Shown here in pieces: positions 10,432 through 44,998 of a stretch of 64,000 nucleotides of DNA. Positions within the stretch are counted from its first letter, which is position 1, and every line of letters starts with the position of its first letter. The position numbers and the translations under genes were made by a program. This stretch comes from a phage: sequence record PZ445511.1. One strand, 5' to 3'. The notes under the pieces are model-generated. The model ran no database searches. It was not told the origin of the DNA and worked only from the letters and a program-made list of their open reading frames with translations.

Positions 10432-13306
10432 GAGCTTCCTCGTGCATCTGACGTTCTTCGTCTGTCATAAACTTAACTGGAATCGGCATACATTCGATCT
10501 TACAGTAAGTTCTGTACCAGTCCACAATCTTTTCCGTATCCAGATCTTTACCGATACCCATCATGCCAAGATACATACGAGCATATTTTGGGTTAGCACT
10601 CTGACCTGTCTTAAGGAAGAAATCCTTCTTCTTATTCTTAAGAGCTTCAATAAACGGTTTGATTGTTACGTTTGAACACTTCTTGATATCTTCCCAGAAC
10701 ATATCGTGCATCTTATGGAAAAATGCAGCTCGATCATTCGGTTTATCCTTGATATACTGTTCAACATGTTCCACTGTTACATCTTTAATAGAATCCAGAT
10801 GATAATAGCGAACCAGAAGTAACTTGGCTTCATATGCATCTGCATGACGTGGTGCGCAGTATTCAGGAGTTGAGTGCAAAATAGCTTTGATTCGCTCTTC
10901 TGTATACTCTTTGCCTGCACCTTCGATAGTTCCCCAGCTTTCACTGAAAATATCAATAGTTGCACCTTGATCGAGAAGATAATAACGCAAAGTACTGGTA
11001 TAGTTTCTAGATTCCAGCTCACGACGACGTGCGTACAGTTGCTGAGCTAACTCAATCCAACCCTCGTCAATATTATATTGCTCGGAACCCGCAGAGAATC
11101 CACTCGTAGATTTATCAATAAAATAATAAATGTTCTGAGCACCACGGTCGCGCCTGATTGCTTGGAAACGCATGTTTGGCGCTTGGTTTGAGGTTCTAGT
11201 GATTACGAATACGTTATCAAAATAGTTAAAGTCAACACCACTCGTTACAGATGGACTACATAACAAACAATCAATCTGTTGATCAATTAGCTCATTAGTT
11301 GTATAATCCAGAATACGTCGAATATCTACGTCTGATGTAGAGTTTGAGTGAATTTCTTTAACTAACGCACCAGTATTACGACGTAATGCCATTCCCTTTT
11401 CATTCAGTTCATCCGGTCCACAGTCAGATACTAGGATTGATTTCTCACCCATCTCTAGAGATGTTTGAAGTGCGACCCAAATACTGGATTCATCAGGGAA
11501 TTCATAAGCATGAGCTTTCGCCAGCATTTTACGGTGATGATTATAGAATGCAACTGGTTTATCAAAATCAATCAAAGAACCATAGGCTTCAATCGTTTCT
11601 GCACTGATATCACCATCAGATAAGATCACCGTTTTAGCAGTAATAAGAATATCGCGAAGGACCTGTATACATTCACGACGGTTTTTAACAACCGGAGCGA
11701 ATAACAGATCATTCATTACTGCGTCACATTCATCAATAAAGATCGTATCAATCTGACCCACAAAGCTCTTGAACTTATGGATAGAGTGAATAGTTGAAGA
11801 CATACGATCAATGGCACCACGTTTGAAGTTCAGCATATCAACTGACTTATCATACTGACCAGCACCGAATTTCTTCGCGTTTGAAGATACAAGTGCCCTA
11901 GTATTCGTGATTGCAATAAAGTTTCCTGGAAGAACACCTGCATCTAGCCACTTAGTTACTGCTGTGGTTTTACCTGTACCAAGACTTGCCTTAACAAATG
12001 TTAAATGTCCTTTTGGTGGTACAATGTTAATTTTCAGGTATGGAACTTCTGGCGGTGAATCTGTGTCCAGACGCTTTAGTGGTACACCTTTTAAGTTGGG
12101 TGGAATCTCACGTTTGGAGTTATTCACAAAGGCTTTTAGAGCCTGCTTACGACCGTTATTAAAGTAATCTTGAATATTACGACTATTATCTTTAGTTGCA
12201 ATATATTCAGATAAAGCTGGTTTAATCTCACGTTCTAACCACGTAAAGTCAACACCATCTTCTAACGCTCTGTGATAAAGTTTTGGGATAATACGCAGGT
12301 ACACCCCATCCTCAGCTTCTTCTAGTTCGCTGATGGTTTCTTCCACTTTATCAGATGCAGCTTTCTTGCCTTTAATTTGGTCAAGTAAGGAGTAGAATTC
12401 TTCTTTAAACTCACCTCTAGTTGTTTCAAAGTCAACTAGGTTATTGGGTAGATTCACTTTCGAACCCTTAACATACACAAGACGTGGTTTATTCTCCGCT
12501 TTAAACGGATCGACTATACCATCATCAAACAAGGGATCTGCGAAATAGTGAAGCTGAACAGAAGAATAATAAGCTAAGTCAGCAATATCAAAGCCATACT
12601 TTTGCTTACTACTGTCATTGATAGATGTAAATAAGAACTTTAACTGTCCCTGCGTTACCTTGACATTAGATTCTAGCATTAAGTGCATTCGGATACCTGG
12701 TTTTAATCCAGCCGAAGACGATGCATGGGCAATAAACCCTGCATCAAGAGGAAACATATCCTCACTAATACTATTCAACATCTTAATAATATGACGTGCC
12801 ATGCCAACAAGATTAAACTTGTCATAGCCACCAGTATCTACAATACCATCCACGTCCATAGCGATAATATGACTAGGATTGGATACGTTAAAGTTTCCTC
12901 TGGTACGACGCACATTATCTTTTGGAGCTAGACATTTACCACGAATAGCTACAATATGCGGGTCTTTGGTAAGACGACGCATGATAGGTAACATTTCAGC
13001 AAGGTTTTGCGGGTCAAGTTCTTCAAGTACATCAAATTTGAAGGGCATGGAAGCTGGTTTACCTTCTGGATGCTCTTTAGAGAATCGCTTTGCAAAGGTA
13101 TAATCTTCCACTTTGATCTCTTTCCAGATGCCAGTGGCTTTATCTCTGGAAAATCCTGCGTGACCTTGTAGGATTGAGAACACAACAATACTCCTATGTT
13201 GGTTATTCGAATATCTTTCTTTAGGACTATTCAAAAGAATAGAACAACTATTACTACCATTTACACAAACATTAATCATCATCAAGCAGTATGAATAAGT
13301 TATCAT
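10394..13306 (-). CDS. Large SF2 helicase-domain protein (possible replication-origin-binding / initiator helicase)
   Basis: 970 aa; Walker A ASLGTGKTT and DExD-like FIDECDAV; N-terminal approx 90 aa low complexity, so true start may be the internal Met at 13048. Confidence 0.6.
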   Translation of the reverse strand: MITYSYCLMMINVCVNGSNSCSILLNSPKERYSNNQHRSIVVFSILQGHAGFSRDKATGIWKEIKVEDYTFAKRFSKEHPEGKPASMPFKFDVLEELDPQNLAEMLPIMRRLTKDPHIVAIRGKCLAPKDNVRRTRGNFNVSNPSHIIAMDVDGIVDTGGYDKFNLVGMARHIIKMLNSISEDMFPLDAGFIAHASSSAGLKPGIRMHLMLESNVKVTQGQLKFLFTSINDSSKQKYGFDIADLAYYSSVQLHYFADPLFDDGIVDPFKAENKPRLVYVKGSKVNLPNNLVDFETTRGEFKEEFYSLLDQIKGKKAASDKVEETISELEEAEDGVYLRIIPKLYHRALEDGVDFTWLEREIKPALSEYIATKDNSRNIQDYFNNGRKQALKAFVNNSKREIPPNLKGVPLKRLDTDSPPEVPYLKINIVPPKGHLTFVKASLGTGKTTAVTKWLDAGVLPGNFIAITNTRALVSSNAKKFGAGQYDKSVDMLNFKRGAIDRMSSTIHSIHKFKSFVGQIDTIFIDECDAVMNDLLFAPVVKNRRECIQVLRDILITAKTVILSDGDISAETIEAYGSLIDFDKPVAFYNHHRKMLAKAHAYEFPDESSIWVALQTSLEMGEKSILVSDCGPDELNEKGMALRRNTGALVKEIHSNSTSDVDIRRILDYTTNELIDQQIDCLLCSPSVTSGVDFNYFDNVFVITRTSNQAPNMRFQAIRRDRGAQNIYYFIDKSTSGFSAGSEQYNIDEGWIELAQQLYARRRELESRNYTSTLRYYLLDQGATIDIFSESWGTIEGAGKEYTEERIKAILHSTPEYCAPRHADAYEAKLLLVRYYHLDSIKDVTVEHVEQYIKDKPNDRAAFFHKMHDMFWEDIKKCSNVTIKPFIEALKNKKKDFFLKTGQSANPKYARMYLGMMGIGKDLDTEKIVDWYRTYCKIECMPIPVKFMTDEERQMHEEALAELGARNDSEE

Positions 13307-32927: not shown

Positions 32928-32965
32928 TAATAGTGGGGTGCCGAAACCACTTATGTAACAACACT

Positions 32966-33037
32966 GCCGTCCTAGTATAATAGGTATTATTAGGGCTTCA
33001 CCGCCTGAAGATGTGGGTTCGAGTCCCACGGTCGGAA
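32966..33037 (+). other. tRNA-like element (canonical T-arm, non-canonical anticodon arm, no CCA)
   Basis: gtgggTTCGAGTcccac T-arm plus 6-of-7 acceptor pairing; 5-nt loop where anticodon loop should be. Confidence 0.3.
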
Positions 33038-33499
33038 AGAGTTGGATAACTGGTGCTTCTAATGGCGAAGCAATCGCAGGCAGTTGCGCACTGCCAAAAC
33101 CACGCGGTAGTTGGTTCCAGGCTAACCAACCACTCTTGAAAAGTATATACTACGGTTTTGCTTGTTCAGGAAGCTTCGCATCGAAAATCGGAGGTGCGAT
33201 TTTATCAGACCGCGTGGAGGACGTCTCTCCGTTAAGTGACGAAAAGTGGGACGATTCAGGTAGAGCTGGATATGGAACACCTATACATATGCGGAGTGCG
33301 CACAAAGCATATTGCGGTGGTACTAAACGAAATTAGGAGTCATGACCTGCACAAGTTTAGTATGTCATAACCGATGTACATTCAGTACAAAAACCACTGA
33401 AGCTAAGATAGATAGTCACCTTGACTTAAACTGGAAGATATTGTCTGACGGAAGGGCTGCAGAGCTTAATCTGAGGGGGCTGACCCTACCTACCGTCGG

Positions 33500-39636: not shown

Positions 39637-39717
39637 GGGGGATTGGCTCAGTGGCGACGGCGCCTGGCTGTAGACCGGGTATATCACGCGGAGGTTCGAG
39701 TCCTCCATCCCCCACCA
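39637..39717 (+). tRNA. tRNA-Tyr (anticodon GTA)
   Basis: Acceptor gggggat/atccccc, anticodon stem cctgg/ccggg with loop ctgtaga, extended variable region, T-arm ggaggTTCGAGTcctcc, CCA. Confidence 0.7.
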
Positions 39718-39725
39718 AAATTAAT

Positions 39726-39800
39726 GCACCTATCGTCTAATGGTTAGGACATCAGGATTTCAATCTGAGAATTGAACTCCGATTCTCCGTGGGTGTGCCA
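39726..39800 (+). tRNA. tRNA-Glu-like (anticodon TTC) with degenerate T-arm
   Basis: Good acceptor, D- and anticodon arms (loop atttcaa); T-arm tgaac/tccgatt/ctccg pairs poorly; CCA encoded. Confidence 0.45.
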
Positions 39801-39809
39801 ATTAATAAT

Positions 39810-39880
39810 TGGGGTACACATAGGTTGCTAGTGGGCCTCCAAAACCCATGAAAAGGTTTCGAATACCTTTACCCCTGCCA
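39810..39880 (+). tRNA. tRNA-Trp-like (anticodon CCA) with truncated D-arm
   Basis: Canonical T-arm aaggtTTCGAATacctt and CCA; anticodon loop ctccaaa with C31-A39 mismatch; U1-U72 mismatch; only 15 nt for the D region. Confidence 0.35.
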
Positions 39881-39886
39881 ATATTT

Positions 39887-39961
39887 GCACCTTTAGCTGA
39901 GATGGATTAGCGCTTGCCTGAAGAGCTTGAGAGGTTCGTTCAATTCGAACAGGGTGCACCA
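39887..39961 (+). tRNA. tRNA-Phe (anticodon GAA), weak anticodon stem
   Basis: Acceptor gcacctt/agggtgc, D-arm gctg...tagc, anticodon loop ctgaaga, T-arm gttcgTTCAATTcgaac, CCA. Confidence 0.55.
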
Positions 39962-40802: not shown

Positions 40803-40905
40803 TATTCTATGTAGGATTAAGTAAACCGGTAGCCAACCAGCTATCATTACTGATATCGAATTCAGTCACAGATACCATTTTTCACTAACAACTGAGGAAA
40901 TAGAT

Positions 40906-41824: not shown

Positions 41825-42027
41825 AACAAATAGAGTAAAGGCTACAGTAGGTGCACCCTTACGGACTGCTACACCGGACTCTATTCATTAACAAACATTC
41901 TAGCGTGGTGGAGAGGGGACACCAGCTGTGCGAGGGTAGAAGCTTGTTCGATTCAAGTGAAAGAATGGTTCTCGTAAATCCGCAGCAGTGATAGTAGGTT
42001 CAAGTCCTACCTAGATTGACTTATTAT

Positions 42028-42101: not shown

Positions 42102-42351
42102 AATTTAGGGTTCTGCTTCCTAGAGAACGGACTCCTAGATAAACAAGGCGATGAGTTTCCGGCCGGTTCTAGTCGCTGAAAATCCTCCCGACCAGGTAGG
42201 TGTAGGTAAACGAAAGTTTACTTATTGAGTAGGTTCCGATAGATCGGCGGATCTATTCTGGCATTTAAGAGAAGTCTCGCAAACTTCTTTGTCAGCAGAG
42301 CGTTTGAAGCGTGAGGTGGCCTACACAATAAGTAAATTTATTAAAAACTCA

Positions 42352-43320: not shown

Positions 43321-43582
43321 ATTTATATAAATTGATGAGGAGAAATCCTCATCAAAGTTCACTAAGGTATTAGCTCGACCTAGGGCTGGCTGCCAAAAAG
43401 CACAATTGCAATTAGACCCCTAATGGCGGGGGATACTTTGCAATAAGTTCTAGATTAGTCCACTAGATTCAGTGGCAACTGAATAGTGTATCGGGTTTGT
43501 GAAGAGCGGTTATCCTCTACTGGCTAATGTCTGAGGGTAATACGCACACCGAGCTAATAGCCTTAGTAAACTTAAAGATTTT

Positions 43583-44084: not shown

Positions 44085-44261
44085 ATGATGAAAACTCCTA
44101 TAACTGATATCTGGTTAGCTGTTAATACATCAACTAAAGAGTATGTGTTTATAGAGTATGGTCAGAGGTATGACCAAAAGATGTATAATCTCATACTTCC
44201 AGTATCTGCTAATGAAGTTTATGATTTAATCCTGAGATCTACGGAAGAGCAAATCGATTAG
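44085..44261 (+). CDS. Hypothetical small protein
   Basis: 58-aa ORF; 3' end overlaps tRNA-Ser(GGA). Confidence 0.35.
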   Translation: MMKTPITDIWLAVNTSTKEYVFIEYGQRYDQKMYNLILPVSANEVYDLILRSTEEQID

Positions 44262-44335
44262 GTGACGAAAACCGCTTGGAAAGTGGCTGACTTGTTAAAG
44301 CAGGCTTGAGAGTTCGAATCTCTCTTCTTCCGCCA
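44243..44335 (+). tRNA. tRNA-Ser (anticodon GGA), class II
   Basis: Acceptor ggaagag/ttcttcc, anticodon loop ttggaaa, approx 20-nt variable arm, T-arm gagagTTCGAATctctc, CCA. Confidence 0.55.
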
Positions 44336-44673: not shown

Positions 44674-44998
44674 AATCTTGAAGTATGCCGGAATCGGTAG
44701 ACGGGGCTTCCTAAAGGGCGTAAGGGGAACATCCACTCCTCATAAGATACCCGAAAACGAGGCTGAGATAACTGGTCTATCTCGTGAAGGTTCGAGTCCT
44801 TCTGCTTCTTGATATTCATCAATGGCTCAAAGTGTAACGGTGCTATTTGATGCTCTTAGTAAGACTTTCCCGACATGCGTTCGGGAGTAAGCTGCTAAGG
44901 CTAGAGTAGAAGAGTTTCGGAGAGCCGCCACAATTGAAGTCTTTAGAATGGGTATCGCCCTTTAGCCCCTCCGAAAGGGATAACTAGAGATTTCAATT

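What the first reader, a model, noticed from the sequence alone, without database searches (positions are those of the whole stretch)
39726..39880. Degenerate tRNA-like genes with intact anticodon but defective arms
The Glu(TTC)-like gene has a well-formed 5' half but a T-arm that cannot pair (tgaac/ctccg, loop tccgatt). The adjacent Trp(CCA)-like gene has a canonical T-arm but a truncated D region and a U1-U72 mismatch. Further orphan T-arm motifs occur at 41942-41958, 41994-42010 and 44786-44802. These may be decaying pseudo-tRNAs or unusual functional tRNAs.
Basis: seen in the sequence. Interest (0 to 1): 0.5.

Follow-up and report, generated by a model that had tools for sequence, protein, structure and literature searches.

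The report
Inversion-broken tRNA-Glu beside atypical tRNA-Trp
In the tRNA gene array of this T5-like Salmonella phage, the only glutamate tRNA gene was recently crippled by a 9-base flip inside its T arm, whereas the odd-looking tryptophan tRNA next to it is the conserved tRNA-Trp already annotated in phage T5, so this is an instructive but ordinary case.

Summary
The window is the tRNA array of a T5-like phage (Epseptimavirus, about 99.9% identical to Salmonella phages S147 and PMBT36).

1. The Glu(UUC) gene (39726-39800) differs from 77 related records only in that 9 nt (CGGAGTTCA), lying between 6-nt inverted repeats, are reverse-complemented (TGAACTCCG). The flip breaks the T stem, changes U55, and favours an 8-bp hairpin that also opens the anticodon stem. 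It occurs in 18 near-identical records. No other tRNA-Glu gene exists in this lineage. I read it as a young pseudo-tRNA, probably made by a replication template switch.

2. The Trp(CCA)-like gene (39810-39880) is the ortholog of T5's annotated tRNAW(CCA). Its short D arm (3-bp stem, 5-nt loop) and U1·U72 mismatch are found in 118 records at 94-99% identity, so it is not decaying. The window carries one private G-to-A change that weakens the D stem. Whether the RNA is charged is untested.

3. The "orphan" T arms lie inside homologs of T5's stable tRNA-like RNA2 and RNA1, both supported by compensatory base-pair changes. A further orphan (44308) lies in a Ser(GGA)-like gene.

Novelty is low.

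The parts
39726..39800 (+). tRNA-Glu(UUC) gene with encoded G73-CCA. The 5' half and the acceptor stem are intact; the T arm is disrupted. This is the only Glu gene in the array.
   Evidence: Rfam tRNA score is 35.2 bits, against 53-57 bits for intact orthologs. ARAGORN does not call it. No tRNA-Glu is found elsewhere in the window or in the rest of the 99.9% relative PMBT36.
39767..39787 (+). 21-nt module GAGAAT-[TGAACTCCG]-ATTCTC: 6-nt inverted-repeat arms at 39767-39772 and 39782-39787 flanking the flipped 9-nt spacer.
   Evidence: BLAST matches these 21 nt at 100% identity to the opposite strand of the same site in VAH1 and beppo.
39773..39781 (+). Inverted 9-mer TGAACTCCG, the exact reverse complement of the ancestral CGGAGTTCA (5' T-stem strand plus T-loop positions 54-57).
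   Evidence: 18 records carry this form and 77 carry the intact form, which differs by exactly the 5 mismatches that the flip predicts.
39810..39880 (+). T5-type tRNA-Trp(CCA) gene, 71 nt: U1·U72, one-nucleotide connector, reduced D arm, extended anticodon stem with C31·A39, canonical T arm, G73-CCA.
   Evidence: 94.4% identical to T5 tRNAW(CCA) T5t20 and in the same Glu-Trp-Phe position. Present in 118 records. ARAGORN calls it at -ps80 and in mitochondrial mode.
39818..39818 (+). Window-private G-to-A substitution that turns the first D-stem pair (G-C) into A·C.
   Evidence: No record among 118 is identical to the window; the best are 98.8%. PMBT36 and falkor both have G at this position. 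The predicted minimum free energy weakens from -19.9 to -17.8 kcal/mol and the D stem shifts to UAG/CUA.
39637..39717 (+). tRNA-Tyr(GTA), the first gene of the Tyr-Glu-Trp-Phe cluster. Spacers of 6-9 nt separate the four genes.
   Evidence: T5 annotates promoter P14a upstream of the same cluster.
39887..39961 (+). tRNA-Phe(GAA), the last gene of the cluster, 100% identical to the T5 gene.
41896..42020 (+). Homolog of T5 RNA2 ("tRNA-like stable RNA with unknown functions"). It contains the two orphan T arms at 41942-41958 and 41994-42010.
   Evidence: 84% identical to T5 rna2. A 5-phage alignment gives 36 consensus pairs, 5 of them with compensatory changes, and the RNA is conserved as far as Pectobacterium phage My1.
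44677..44823 (+). Homolog of T5 RNA1 ("tRNA-like stable RNA with unknown functions"). It contains the orphan T arm at 44786-44802. It has a class-II-like D arm, a long variable arm, a T arm and an acceptor stem, with an enlarged domain in place of the anticodon arm. No CCA is encoded.
   Evidence: 80% identical to T5 rna1. The consensus fold has 38 pairs, 7 with compensatory changes.
44243..44335 (+). Ser(GGA)-like tRNA gene with encoded CCA.
   Evidence: T-arm scan. Weak class-II tRNA hit of 23.8 bits. Alignment to T5 tRNAS2(GGA) shows compensatory stem changes. 100% identical in beppo, 86-89% in VAH1 and My1.

Best explanation
The window holds the tRNA gene array of a T5-like Salmonella phage (Demerecviridae, Epseptimavirus).

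(i) 39726-39800 is the array's only tRNA-Glu(UUC) gene. In this lineage the 9-nt spacer between two 6-nt inverted repeats (GAGAAT ... ATTCTC) was replaced by its reverse complement. The most likely cause is a DNA-polymerase template switch across the hairpin during replication (inferred). The flip removes the 5' strand of the T stem, including G53, and changes U55 to C. The transcript is predicted to fold instead into an 8-bp hairpin that also consumes two pairs of the anticodon stem. Without a T arm there is no tRNA elbow for RNase P, EF-Tu or the ribosome, so the product is most likely dead for translation. That makes it a young pseudo-tRNA, tolerated because phage tRNA genes are dispensable on permissive hosts (inferred).

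(ii) 39810-39880 is the ortholog of the tRNA-Trp(CCA) annotated in phage T5. The reduced D arm (1-nt connector, 3-bp stem, 5-nt loop containing GG), the 26-44-extended anticodon stem and the U1·U72 mismatch are conserved traits of this allele. It keeps the bacterial TrpRS identity set: CCA anticodon, G73, and G2-C71 through G5-C68. It sits in register in the Tyr-Glu-Trp-Phe cluster with an encoded CCA. It is probably processed and used as a non-canonical tRNA-Trp (inferred, untested). The window's private G-to-A change weakens its D stem.

(iii) The orphan T arms are parts of conserved structured RNAs: homologs of T5's stable tRNA-like RNA2 and RNA1, and a Ser(GGA)-like tRNA.
For: Identity of the phage: 449 phage records match the region, the best at 99.9% (S147, PMBT36 and others).

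The inversion:
- The window has TGAACTCCG where VAH1, beppo and My1 have CGGAGTTCA/G.
- The 21-nt module matches the opposite strand of the orthologous site at 100%.
- 18 records (about 11 phages) carry the flipped form. 77 carry the intact form at 89.1% or 87.0% identity. My own count gives 5 of 46 mismatches for the 89.1% class, which is exactly what a flip predicts.

Constraint on the Glu family:
- The cloverleaf is paired in 98% of cells, and 8 pairs show compensatory changes.
- The window allele breaks two T-stem pairs.
- The Rfam score falls from 53-57 to 35.2 bits.
- ARAGORN calls every intact allele but never the flipped one.

Thermodynamics: T-stem probability is 0.00, anticodon-stem probability is at most 0.06, and the alternative 8-bp hairpin has a probability of about 0.7. 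The cloverleaf lies 8.2 kcal/mol above the minimum free energy.

No other Glu gene.

Mechanism precedent: spacer inversion between inverted repeats by template switching (PMC8604942, PMC8794818).

Dispensability: T5 deletion mutants lacking 11 or 17 of the 24 tRNA genes remain able to infect E. coli and are used in plaque assays (PMC12409363, PMC11464382).

Trp-like gene:
- T5 annotates tRNAW(CCA) at the orthologous position, and the window copy is 94.4% identical.
- It occurs in 118 records, all at 93.8-98.8% identity.
- The few variants keep or improve pairing: U1 to G gives G1·U72, C to U gives U·G in the D stem, and C69 to U gives G·U.
- The minimum-free-energy fold is a cloverleaf with a 3-bp D stem.
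- An ARAGORN-callable allele occupies the same slot in about 286 records, so nearly all relatives keep a Trp(CCA) gene there.
- Trp identity elements are taken from PMC9976931.
- The C31·A39 anticodon stem also occurs in unrelated canonical tRNA-Trp genes.
- T5 tRNA-Phe, which has two U·U mismatches in its anticodon stem, is a PheRS substrate (PMC9976931). Mismatches in T5 tRNAs therefore do not by themselves imply a dead gene.

Orphan T arms.
Against: There are no expression, processing or charging data for either RNA.

Glu gene:
- It still passes Rfam's gathering score.
- It has accumulated no further mutation, although that is expected if the event is recent.
- The allele has spread to about 11 isolates from several laboratories and countries, so it is at least not strongly deleterious. 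A residual or different role cannot be excluded.

Trp gene:
- Rfam scores are below threshold: 20.8-23.1 bits in T5 and VAH1, and no hit in the window.
- The T5 record notes that a CUA-anticodon version did not act as an amber suppressor. This is weak evidence, because TrpRS reads the anticodon and about half of the T5 tRNAs failed the same test.
- Sequence diversity is too low for a real covariation test.
- Tight linkage to the 100%-conserved Phe gene could explain the conservation through hitch-hiking.
Confidence: 0.7

Rival explanations
1. The Trp-like gene is also a dead relic. It would be a once-normal tRNA-Trp that lost part of its D arm in the ancestor of the T5-type allele, and that persists only because it is short, harmless and tightly linked to the functional Phe and Tyr genes in a recombining cassette.
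For: Rfam tRNA scores are below the gathering threshold (20.8-23.1 bits). ARAGORN misses it by default in every phage. The first pair is a U1·U72 mismatch and position 8 is C rather than U. The T5 record reports no suppressor activity after the anticodon swap. The neighbouring Phe gene is 100% identical between T5 and the window, so local conservation could reflect linkage. Some relatives, such as My1, carry no Trp gene at all.
Against: It is near-invariant in 118 records, while the adjacent Glu slot has swapped among at least three allele types. The stem variants seen in relatives all preserve or improve pairing. The full TrpRS identity set, the encoded CCA, the canonical T arm and the exact register in the cluster are all retained. 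No decayed or truncated versions were seen among the sequences sampled.
Confidence: 0.3
2. Both genes, including the flipped Glu gene, are functional unusual tRNAs, with the new hairpin substituting for a T arm much as in T-arm-lacking mitochondrial tRNAs.
For: The acceptor stem, D arm, anticodon loop, encoded CCA and the GluRS-relevant D-arm features are untouched. The score of 35.2 bits exceeds Rfam's threshold. The allele is fixed in about 11 isolates.
Against: The change is a single mutational accident relative to 77 intact relatives. It removes G53-C61 and U55. It is predicted to unzip the anticodon stem (pair probability at most 0.06). As established background knowledge, bacterial EF-Tu, RNase P and the ribosome rely on the acceptor/T-arm stack and the elbow. 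Every other allele maintains the T stem through compensatory changes.
Confidence: 0.08
3. The non-canonical tRNA-like RNAs of the array (the Trp-like gene, RNA1, RNA2 and perhaps the flipped Glu gene) act outside translation. Possible roles are decoys or sponges for host tRNA-targeting defence nucleases, or RNase P/E processing punctuation for the polycistronic tRNA transcripts.
For: T5 tRNAs are shown to counter the PARIS AriB nuclease and the retron Eco7 effector (PMC11464382, PMC12409363, PMC11555353). One of those papers raises the possibility that some viral tRNAs act beyond rescuing translation (PMC12409363). RNA1 and RNA2 are conserved and structured, keep an acceptor stem and T arm, and lack a normal anticodon arm and an encoded CCA.
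Against: No experiment links any of these RNAs to a defence system. The Trp-like gene has a normal anticodon loop and identity set, which is most simply explained by decoding. The Glu lesion looks accidental.
Confidence: 0.12
4. The features are sequencing or assembly artefacts.
For: The single G-to-A at 39818 is seen in no other record and could be a read or consensus error.
Against: The 9-nt flip is identical in 18 records from independent projects. The Trp-like architecture is identical in 118 records and in 3 metagenome contigs.
Confidence: 0.02

Closest known systems
Phage T5 tRNA-Trp, tRNAW(CCA), locus T5t20 (NC_005859 35177-35247)
   Same: Orthologous position between the Glu and Phe genes. 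94.4% identity, the same 71-nt length, the same short D arm, U1·U72, C31·A39, canonical T arm and G73-CCA.
   Different: The window has TAG instead of AAA at the junction between the D stem and the anticodon stem, a variant shared with its clade. It also has a private G-to-A that breaks the first D-stem pair. T5 has G4·U69 where the window has G4-C69.
Intact GCACC-type tRNA-Glu(UUC) of T5-like phages (VAH1, beppo, bobsandoy, SuperGirl, My1)
   Same: The gene is the same at every position outside the 9-nt segment. The anticodon, D arm and acceptor stem are identical.
   Different: The 9 nt between the GAGAAT and ATTCTC repeats are reverse-complemented, which destroys the T arm. The Rfam score is 18-22 bits lower.
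Multinucleotide mutations from template switching between short inverted repeats (inverted-repeat spacer inversion)
   Same: Perfect 6-nt arms and an exact reverse complement of the spacer, with no other change. This is the signature described in PMC8604942 and PMC8794818.
   Different: Here the event falls inside a tRNA gene of a phage and destroys a functional RNA helix. The mechanism itself is inferred from the footprint and was not observed.
T5 stable tRNA-like RNAs RNA1 and RNA2 (misc_RNA rna1 and rna2 in NC_005859)
   Same: 80% and 84% identity, the same positions in the array, and the same acceptor-stem and T-arm modules.
   Different: Sequence differences are largely compensatory. The function is unknown in T5 as well.
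Mitochondrial tRNAs with reduced D arms, for example mammalian mt-tRNA-Ser(UCN) (recalled from memory, not tested)
   Same: One nucleotide between the acceptor and D stems, a small D arm and an extended anticodon stem. ARAGORN's mitochondrial mode calls the window gene as mtRNA-Trp with a 3-bp D stem.
   Different: There is no evolutionary relationship. The phage RNA would have to work with a bacterial synthetase, EF-Tu and ribosome. This is a resemblance in architecture only.

Membership tests
Canonical elongator tRNA (Rfam RF00005): Glu-like gene 39726-39800 | 7-bp acceptor stem, discriminator base, 3' CCA | tested here: met
   Seven pairs (G1·U72 wobble, U6·G67 wobble), then G73 and CCA encoded.
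Canonical elongator tRNA (Rfam RF00005): Glu-like gene 39726-39800 | 5-bp T stem closed by G53-C61, with a T loop UUCRANY | tested here: not met
   The stem reads U·G, G-C, A·C, A-U, C·C and the loop is UCCGAUU (U55 changed to C). T-stem pairing probability is 0.00.
Canonical elongator tRNA (Rfam RF00005): Glu-like gene 39726-39800 | Score at or above the family gathering threshold (29 bits) | tested here: met
   35.2 bits, against 53-57 bits for intact orthologs.
tRNA pseudogene: Glu-like gene | Clear homology to a functional tRNA gene plus a derived lesion in an essential helix, with no compensation | tested here: met
   Identical to intact alleles apart from the flipped 9-mer. The flipped form is confined to 18 near-identical records while outgroups, including My1, are intact. 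The family otherwise maintains the stem through compensatory change.
tRNA pseudogene: Glu-like gene | Loss of processing, aminoacylation and decoding | not testable with these tools
   Only folding predictions are available.
Canonical elongator tRNA (Rfam RF00005): Trp-like gene 39810-39880 | Acceptor stem, discriminator base, CCA | tested here: inconclusive
   Six pairs plus a U1·U72 mismatch, with G73-CCA encoded. Two relatives have G1·U72 instead.
Canonical elongator tRNA (Rfam RF00005): Trp-like gene 39810-39880 | D arm with a 3-4 bp stem, a 7-11 nt loop containing G18G19, and U8 plus N9 as connector | tested here: not met
   The connector is one nucleotide (C), the stem is 3 bp (GCA/UGC in relatives, A·C plus 2 bp in the window), and the loop is 5 nt (UAGGU).
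Canonical elongator tRNA (Rfam RF00005): Trp-like gene 39810-39880 | Anticodon arm with a 7-nt loop, U33 and a purine at position 37; canonical T arm | tested here: met
   The loop is C-U-CCA-A-A. The stem has a C31·A39 mismatch, which is also seen in unrelated tRNA-Trp genes. The T arm is AAGGU/UUCGAAU/ACCUU.
Canonical elongator tRNA (Rfam RF00005): Trp-like gene 39810-39880 | Score at or above the family gathering threshold (29 bits) | tested here: not met
   No tRNA hit in the window at E<=10. 20.8 bits in T5 and 23.1 bits in VAH1.
T5-type tRNA-Trp (ortholog group of T5t20) | Sequence orthology and conserved position between the Glu and Phe genes | tested here: met
   94.4% identity over all 71 nt and the same flanking genes.
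T5-type tRNA-Trp (ortholog group of T5t20) | Bacterial TrpRS identity set (C34 C35 A36, G73, G2-C71, G3-C70, G4-C69, G5-C68; A1-U72 minor) | tested here: met
   All elements are present except A1, which is U1 here. The identity set is taken from PMC9976931 and the sequence. Charging itself was not tested.
T5 stable tRNA-like RNAs RNA1 and RNA2 | Homology and conserved position relative to T5 rna1 and rna2, plus a conserved secondary structure | tested here: met
   80% and 84% identity at the corresponding positions in the array. 7 of 38 and 5 of 36 consensus pairs show compensatory changes.

The most novel reading that the evidence does not exclude
The T5-type tRNA-Trp is a genuinely functional, charged tRNA that works on bacterial ribosomes with a mitochondria-like minimal D arm and an unpaired 1-72 position. 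It, together with the conserved tRNA-like RNA1 and RNA2, would have been shaped by pressure to escape or to soak up host tRNA-targeting defence nucleases. The flipped Glu gene would then show how readily this array gains and loses members through template-switch mutations.
Probability: 0.2. Interest if true: 0.55.

Novelty: new member of a known kind. Interest (0 to 1): 0.27.

Why it matters
Three practical points follow.

1. A whole clade of S147-like Salmonella phages, several of them candidates for biocontrol, has lost its only tRNA-Glu through one 9-base flip. Annotation pipelines either skip the gene or label it as a normal tRNA-Glu, so tRNA counts and codon-compensation analyses for these phages are wrong by one gene.

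2. The T5-type tRNA-Trp is invisible to ARAGORN and falls below Rfam's threshold. In the records examined here only the T5 records label it tRNA-Trp. Published statements that a T5-like phage "lacks tRNA-Trp" when tRNAs were predicted with ARAGORN (for example BF23, PMC10644984) may reflect this blind spot.

3. Because T5 tRNAs are now known to be counter-defence tools, natural loss-of-function alleles and non-canonical members are useful handles for testing which tRNAs matter against which host systems.

None of this changes current understanding of tRNA biology.

Tried and rejected
- I looked for more divergent relatives of the Trp-like gene in order to run a real covariation test. An IMG/VR pattern scan gave only 4 T5-like contigs. 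A metagenome scan gave only 3 more, with identical sequence, plus unrelated canonical tRNA-Trp genes. The diversity is too low and the test was abandoned.

- I looked for a second Glu or Trp gene that could compensate. No beppo-type Trp or T5-type Glu exists in the window, and there are no tRNAs at all in the rest of the near-identical PMBT36 genome.

- I checked whether the flipped segment creates a real gene on the opposite strand. ARAGORN's low-threshold "tRNA-Asn(att)" on the minus strand is a by-product of the flipped half of the T arm and was rejected.

- The weak Rfam hits to permuted tmRNA, Plastid-ycf2 and snoRNA families are noise or reverse-strand echoes of tRNAs.

- The consensus promoter scan found nothing upstream of the cluster. 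The transcription context therefore rests only on homology to T5's annotated promoter P14a.

- A literature search found no tRNA-seq or charging data for T5 tRNA-Trp or tRNA-Glu in the held library.

- Thermodynamic z-scores against shuffled sequences are not informative for any of these tRNAs, including the intact ones.
Full report
WHAT THE WINDOW IS. ARAGORN finds 28 tRNA genes on the + strand between 32.9 and 46.8 kb, and none of them is for Glu or Trp. Rfam finds 27 tRNA matches, including a low one (35.2 bits, gathering score 29) at 39726-39797. The 1-kb surroundings match 449 phage records. The best matches, at 99.9%, are Salmonella phages S147, PMBT36, vaffelhjerte and related isolates. 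All close relatives are T5-like phages (Demerecviridae, Markadamsvirinae, mostly Epseptimavirus). The finding therefore lies in the well-known tRNA array of a T5-like phage, within a tight Tyr-Glu-Trp-Phe cluster whose genes are separated by 6-9 nt. T5 annotates promoter P14a upstream of the same cluster.

CHECK OF THE OBSERVATION.
- The Glu-like gene (39726-39800) has a perfect acceptor stem, D arm and anticodon arm, but its T region reads TGAAC/TCCGATT/CTCCG.
- Strictly, three nominal pairs survive (U·G, G-C, A-U). They are interrupted by A·C and C·C, so no helix can form.
- The Trp-like gene (39810-39880) has a canonical T arm, the anticodon loop CUCCAAA, G73-CCA, a U1·U72 mismatch, and only 15 nt between the acceptor and anticodon stems.
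- The three orphan T arms are exact. A scan for 5-bp stems around TTCRANN loops gives 29 on the + strand and 0 on the - strand, against 1.3 per strand in shuffles. It also reveals one more orphan at 44308-44324.

THE GLU GENE: A 9-NT FLIP. Comparing the window with orthologs shows that the defect is not diffuse decay.
- VAH1, beppo and My1 read ...GAGAAT CGGAGTTCA ATTCTCCG..., which gives the normal T arm CGGAG/TTCAATT/CTCCG. The window, PMBT36 and falkor read ...GAGAAT TGAACTCCG ATTCTCCG....
- TGAACTCCG is the exact reverse complement of CGGAGTTCA, and the segment is bracketed by perfect 6-nt inverted repeats.
- BLAST shows this independently: positions 42-62 of the window gene match the opposite strand of the orthologous site at 100%.
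- A 46-nt probe finds the flipped form at 100% in 18 records. These are about 11 phages: S113, S147, vB_SenS-3, vaffelhjerte, polluks, gmork, falkor, MET_P1_137_112, MET_P1-88, RA40 and PMBT36.
- The same probe finds the intact form in 77 records, at 89.1% or 87.0%. By my count the 89.1% class differs at 5 of 46 positions, exactly the five mismatches a flip produces.
- Intact alleles include the outgroup My1, from another subfamily, so the flipped state is derived. It is confined to one near-identical clade, which is consistent with a single recent event.
- The footprint (short perfect arms, spacer exactly reverse-complemented, nothing else changed) is the one described for DNA-polymerase template switching between inverted repeats (PMC8604942, PMC8794818). 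That mechanism is inferred here, not shown.

CONSEQUENCE FOR THE RNA.
- Across seven distinct alleles of this Glu gene the cloverleaf is paired in 98% of cells. Eight pairs show compensatory double changes, four in the anticodon stem and four in the T stem. The window allele contributes two of the three unpaired cells, both in the T stem. The family is therefore under strong structural selection, and this allele is the only one with more than one broken pair.
- Rfam's tRNA score drops from 53.3-56.9 bits for intact alleles to 35.2 bits.
- ARAGORN calls every intact allele, but never the flipped one, even at a 60% threshold.
- In the folding model the flip lengthens the inverted-repeat hairpin to 8 bp (GAGAAUUG/CGAUUCUC, loop AACUC). 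That hairpin has a probability of about 0.7. The T stem has probability 0.00 and the anticodon stem at most 0.06. The cloverleaf lies 8.2 kcal/mol above the minimum. For the intact allele the cloverleaf is itself the minimum.
- G53-C61 and U55 are lost. Given the established roles of the acceptor/T-arm stack and the elbow in RNase P, EF-Tu and ribosome binding, the product is most likely inactive in translation (inference).
- No other Glu gene exists in the window. The 99.9%-identical PMBT36 has no tRNA at all outside the region equivalent to the window. The lineage has therefore lost its phage tRNA-Glu.
- Such a loss is plausible. T5 deletion mutants lacking 11 or 17 of the 24 tRNA genes still infect and are used in plaque assays (PMC12409363, PMC11464382).

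THE TRP-LIKE GENE: NOT DECAY BUT THE T5 tRNA-TRP.
- The T5 RefSeq record annotates tRNAW(CCA) (T5t20, 71 nt) between tRNAE and tRNAF. The window element is 94.4% identical to it over its full length.
- The element occurs in 118 phage records, all at 93.8-98.8% identity to the window, and in three metagenomic T5-like contigs.
- In the records examined, only the T5 records label it tRNA-Trp. ARAGORN misses it in T5, IME178, Spc35, VAH1, mar004NP2 and PMBT36. Rfam gives it only 20.8-23.1 bits.
- Its architecture is constant: U1·U72; a single connector nucleotide (C); a 3-bp D stem GCA/UGC with the loop UAGGU; two unpaired nucleotides; an anticodon stem extended by a 26-44 pair and closed by C31·A39; a 4-nt variable loop; a canonical T arm; and G73-CCA.
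- The few variants among 17 sequences keep or improve pairing. U1 to G in bastian and mar003J3 gives G1·U72. C to U in LmqsSP1 gives U·G in the D stem. C69 to U in T5 gives G·U. A26 to G keeps the pair with U44.
- The gene retains the bacterial TrpRS identity set (CCA anticodon, G73, G2-C71 to G5-C68; PMC9976931).
- C31·A39 also occurs in unrelated, otherwise canonical tRNA-Trp genes.
- A second allele that ARAGORN does call as tRNA-Trp (beppo-type) occupies the same slot in about 286 records. Nearly all relatives therefore keep one Trp(CCA) gene at this position.
- Mismatches are common in this array and do not imply a dead gene. The Phe gene has two U·U mismatches in its anticodon stem, yet T5 tRNA-Phe is a PheRS substrate (PMC9976931).
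- Against function stand the sub-threshold scores, the unpaired 1-72 position, C8, the T5 note that a CUA version did not suppress amber (weak, because TrpRS reads the anticodon), and the possibility of hitch-hiking with the 100%-conserved Phe gene.
- I put the chance that it is a working tRNA-Trp at roughly one half. This cannot be settled from sequence.
- The window has one private change, G to A at 39818, seen in none of the 118 records. It converts the first D-stem pair to A·C, weakens the predicted fold by about 2 kcal/mol, and shifts the stem to UAG/CUA. It may be a slightly deleterious mutation or a sequencing error.

THE ORPHAN T ARMS. The T5 record annotates several stable RNAs within the array.
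- The motifs at 41942 and 41994 both lie in the homolog of RNA2 ("tRNA-like stable RNA with unknown functions"; window 41896-42020, 84% identity). The motif at 44786 lies in the homolog of RNA1 (44677-44823, 80% identity).
- Both are real structured RNAs. The RNA1 consensus fold has 38 pairs, 7 with compensatory changes, including two in an acceptor-like stem. The RNA2 fold has 36 pairs, 5 with compensatory changes, and is conserved as far as Pectobacterium phage My1.
- The extra orphan at 44308 belongs to a Ser(GGA)-like gene (44243-44335). It is homologous to T5 tRNAS2(GGA), has fully compensated stems and encodes CCA.
- Homologs of T5 rna3, rnaI, rnaIV and part of rna2H are also present.

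COMPARISON WITH WHAT IS KNOWN, AND VERDICT. The Trp-like gene, RNA1 and RNA2 are already annotated in phage T5, although their biology is essentially unstudied. The Glu lesion appears to be unremarked: records either skip the gene or call it tRNA-Glu. It is a new instance of two known things, a tRNA pseudogene and a template-switch spacer inversion. The broader context, in which T5 tRNAs act as counter-measures to tRNA-cleaving defences (PMC11464382, PMC12409363, PMC11555353), makes natural loss-of-function and non-canonical members mildly useful. Nothing here would surprise a specialist. I rate interest at about 0.27.

Noticed in passing
window 44243-44335: A Ser(GGA)-like tRNA gene with encoded CCA that ARAGORN does not call. 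It is homologous to T5 tRNAS2(GGA), with fully compensated T, anticodon and acceptor stems. Its 5' end overlaps the stop codon of the upstream small ORF (44085-44261).
   Followed up: partly
window 32965-33038: A low-scoring tRNA-like element called tRNA-SeC(tca) by ARAGORN (Rfam 33 bits). It has acceptor-stem mismatches and no encoded CCA. Relatives annotate it as tRNA-OTHER or tRNA-Sec, or cover the stretch with an HNH/homing endonuclease gene.
   Followed up: partly
window 44677-44823 (RNA1 homolog): This RNA has a class-II tRNA-like architecture: a Leu-like D arm, a long variable arm, a T arm and a 6-bp acceptor stem. Its anticodon arm is replaced by a ~60-nt three-helix domain ending in the loop ACAUCC(A/G)C, and it ends in UUGA rather than CCA. 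Seven pairs show compensatory changes among only four sequences. Function is unknown.
   Followed up: partly
window 41896-42020 (RNA2 homolog): This RNA has two T-arm-like hairpins in a single 125-nt molecule. Its 5' end (CAUUCUAG) can pair either with a nearby AGAAUG or with the 3'-terminal CUAG(A/G)AUG, which suggests alternative folds. It is conserved as far as Pectobacterium phage My1 (72% identity).
   Followed up: partly
L008 489-565 (Salmonella phage beppo) and about 286 other records: The alternative Trp allele, which ARAGORN does call, is itself odd. It has U2·U71 and U3·U70 mismatches in the acceptor stem and U27·U43 in the anticodon stem, and scores only 34.1 bits in Rfam. It lacks the G2-C71 and G3-C70 Trp identity pairs that the T5-type allele keeps.
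   Followed up: no
window 39887-39961: tRNA-Phe(GAA) has two adjacent U·U mismatches in its anticodon stem, yet it is 100% identical to the T5 gene. Mismatched stems appear to be a general habit of this array.
   Followed up: no
window 40805-40877, 42229-42327, 43368-43502, 44824-44930: Homologs of T5's other annotated stable RNAs: rna3 ("putative tRNA-like", 92%), rnaIV (89%), part of rna2H (77%) and rnaI (92%). None is recognised by Rfam.
   Followed up: no
L022 about 12085-12165, minus strand (Pectobacterium phage My1): There is an unannotated tRNA-like gene with a CAU anticodon loop, a T arm and a terminal UCCA in the gap after tRNA-Glu. This is the position where T5-like phages carry the Trp gene.
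   Followed up: no
literature: PMC10644984 (phage BF23): BF23 is reported to encode tRNAs for all amino acids except Arg and Trp, on the basis of ARAGORN predictions. Because ARAGORN misses the T5-type tRNA-Trp in every phage tested here, that absence may be an annotation blind spot.
   Followed up: no
L025-L040 (metagenome contigs): The anticodon arm GGGC-CUCCAAA-ACCC, with a C31·A39 mismatch, recurs in unrelated and otherwise canonical tRNA-Trp genes from diverse metagenomes. That mismatch is therefore a normal variant of tRNA-Trp and not a defect.
   Followed up: partly
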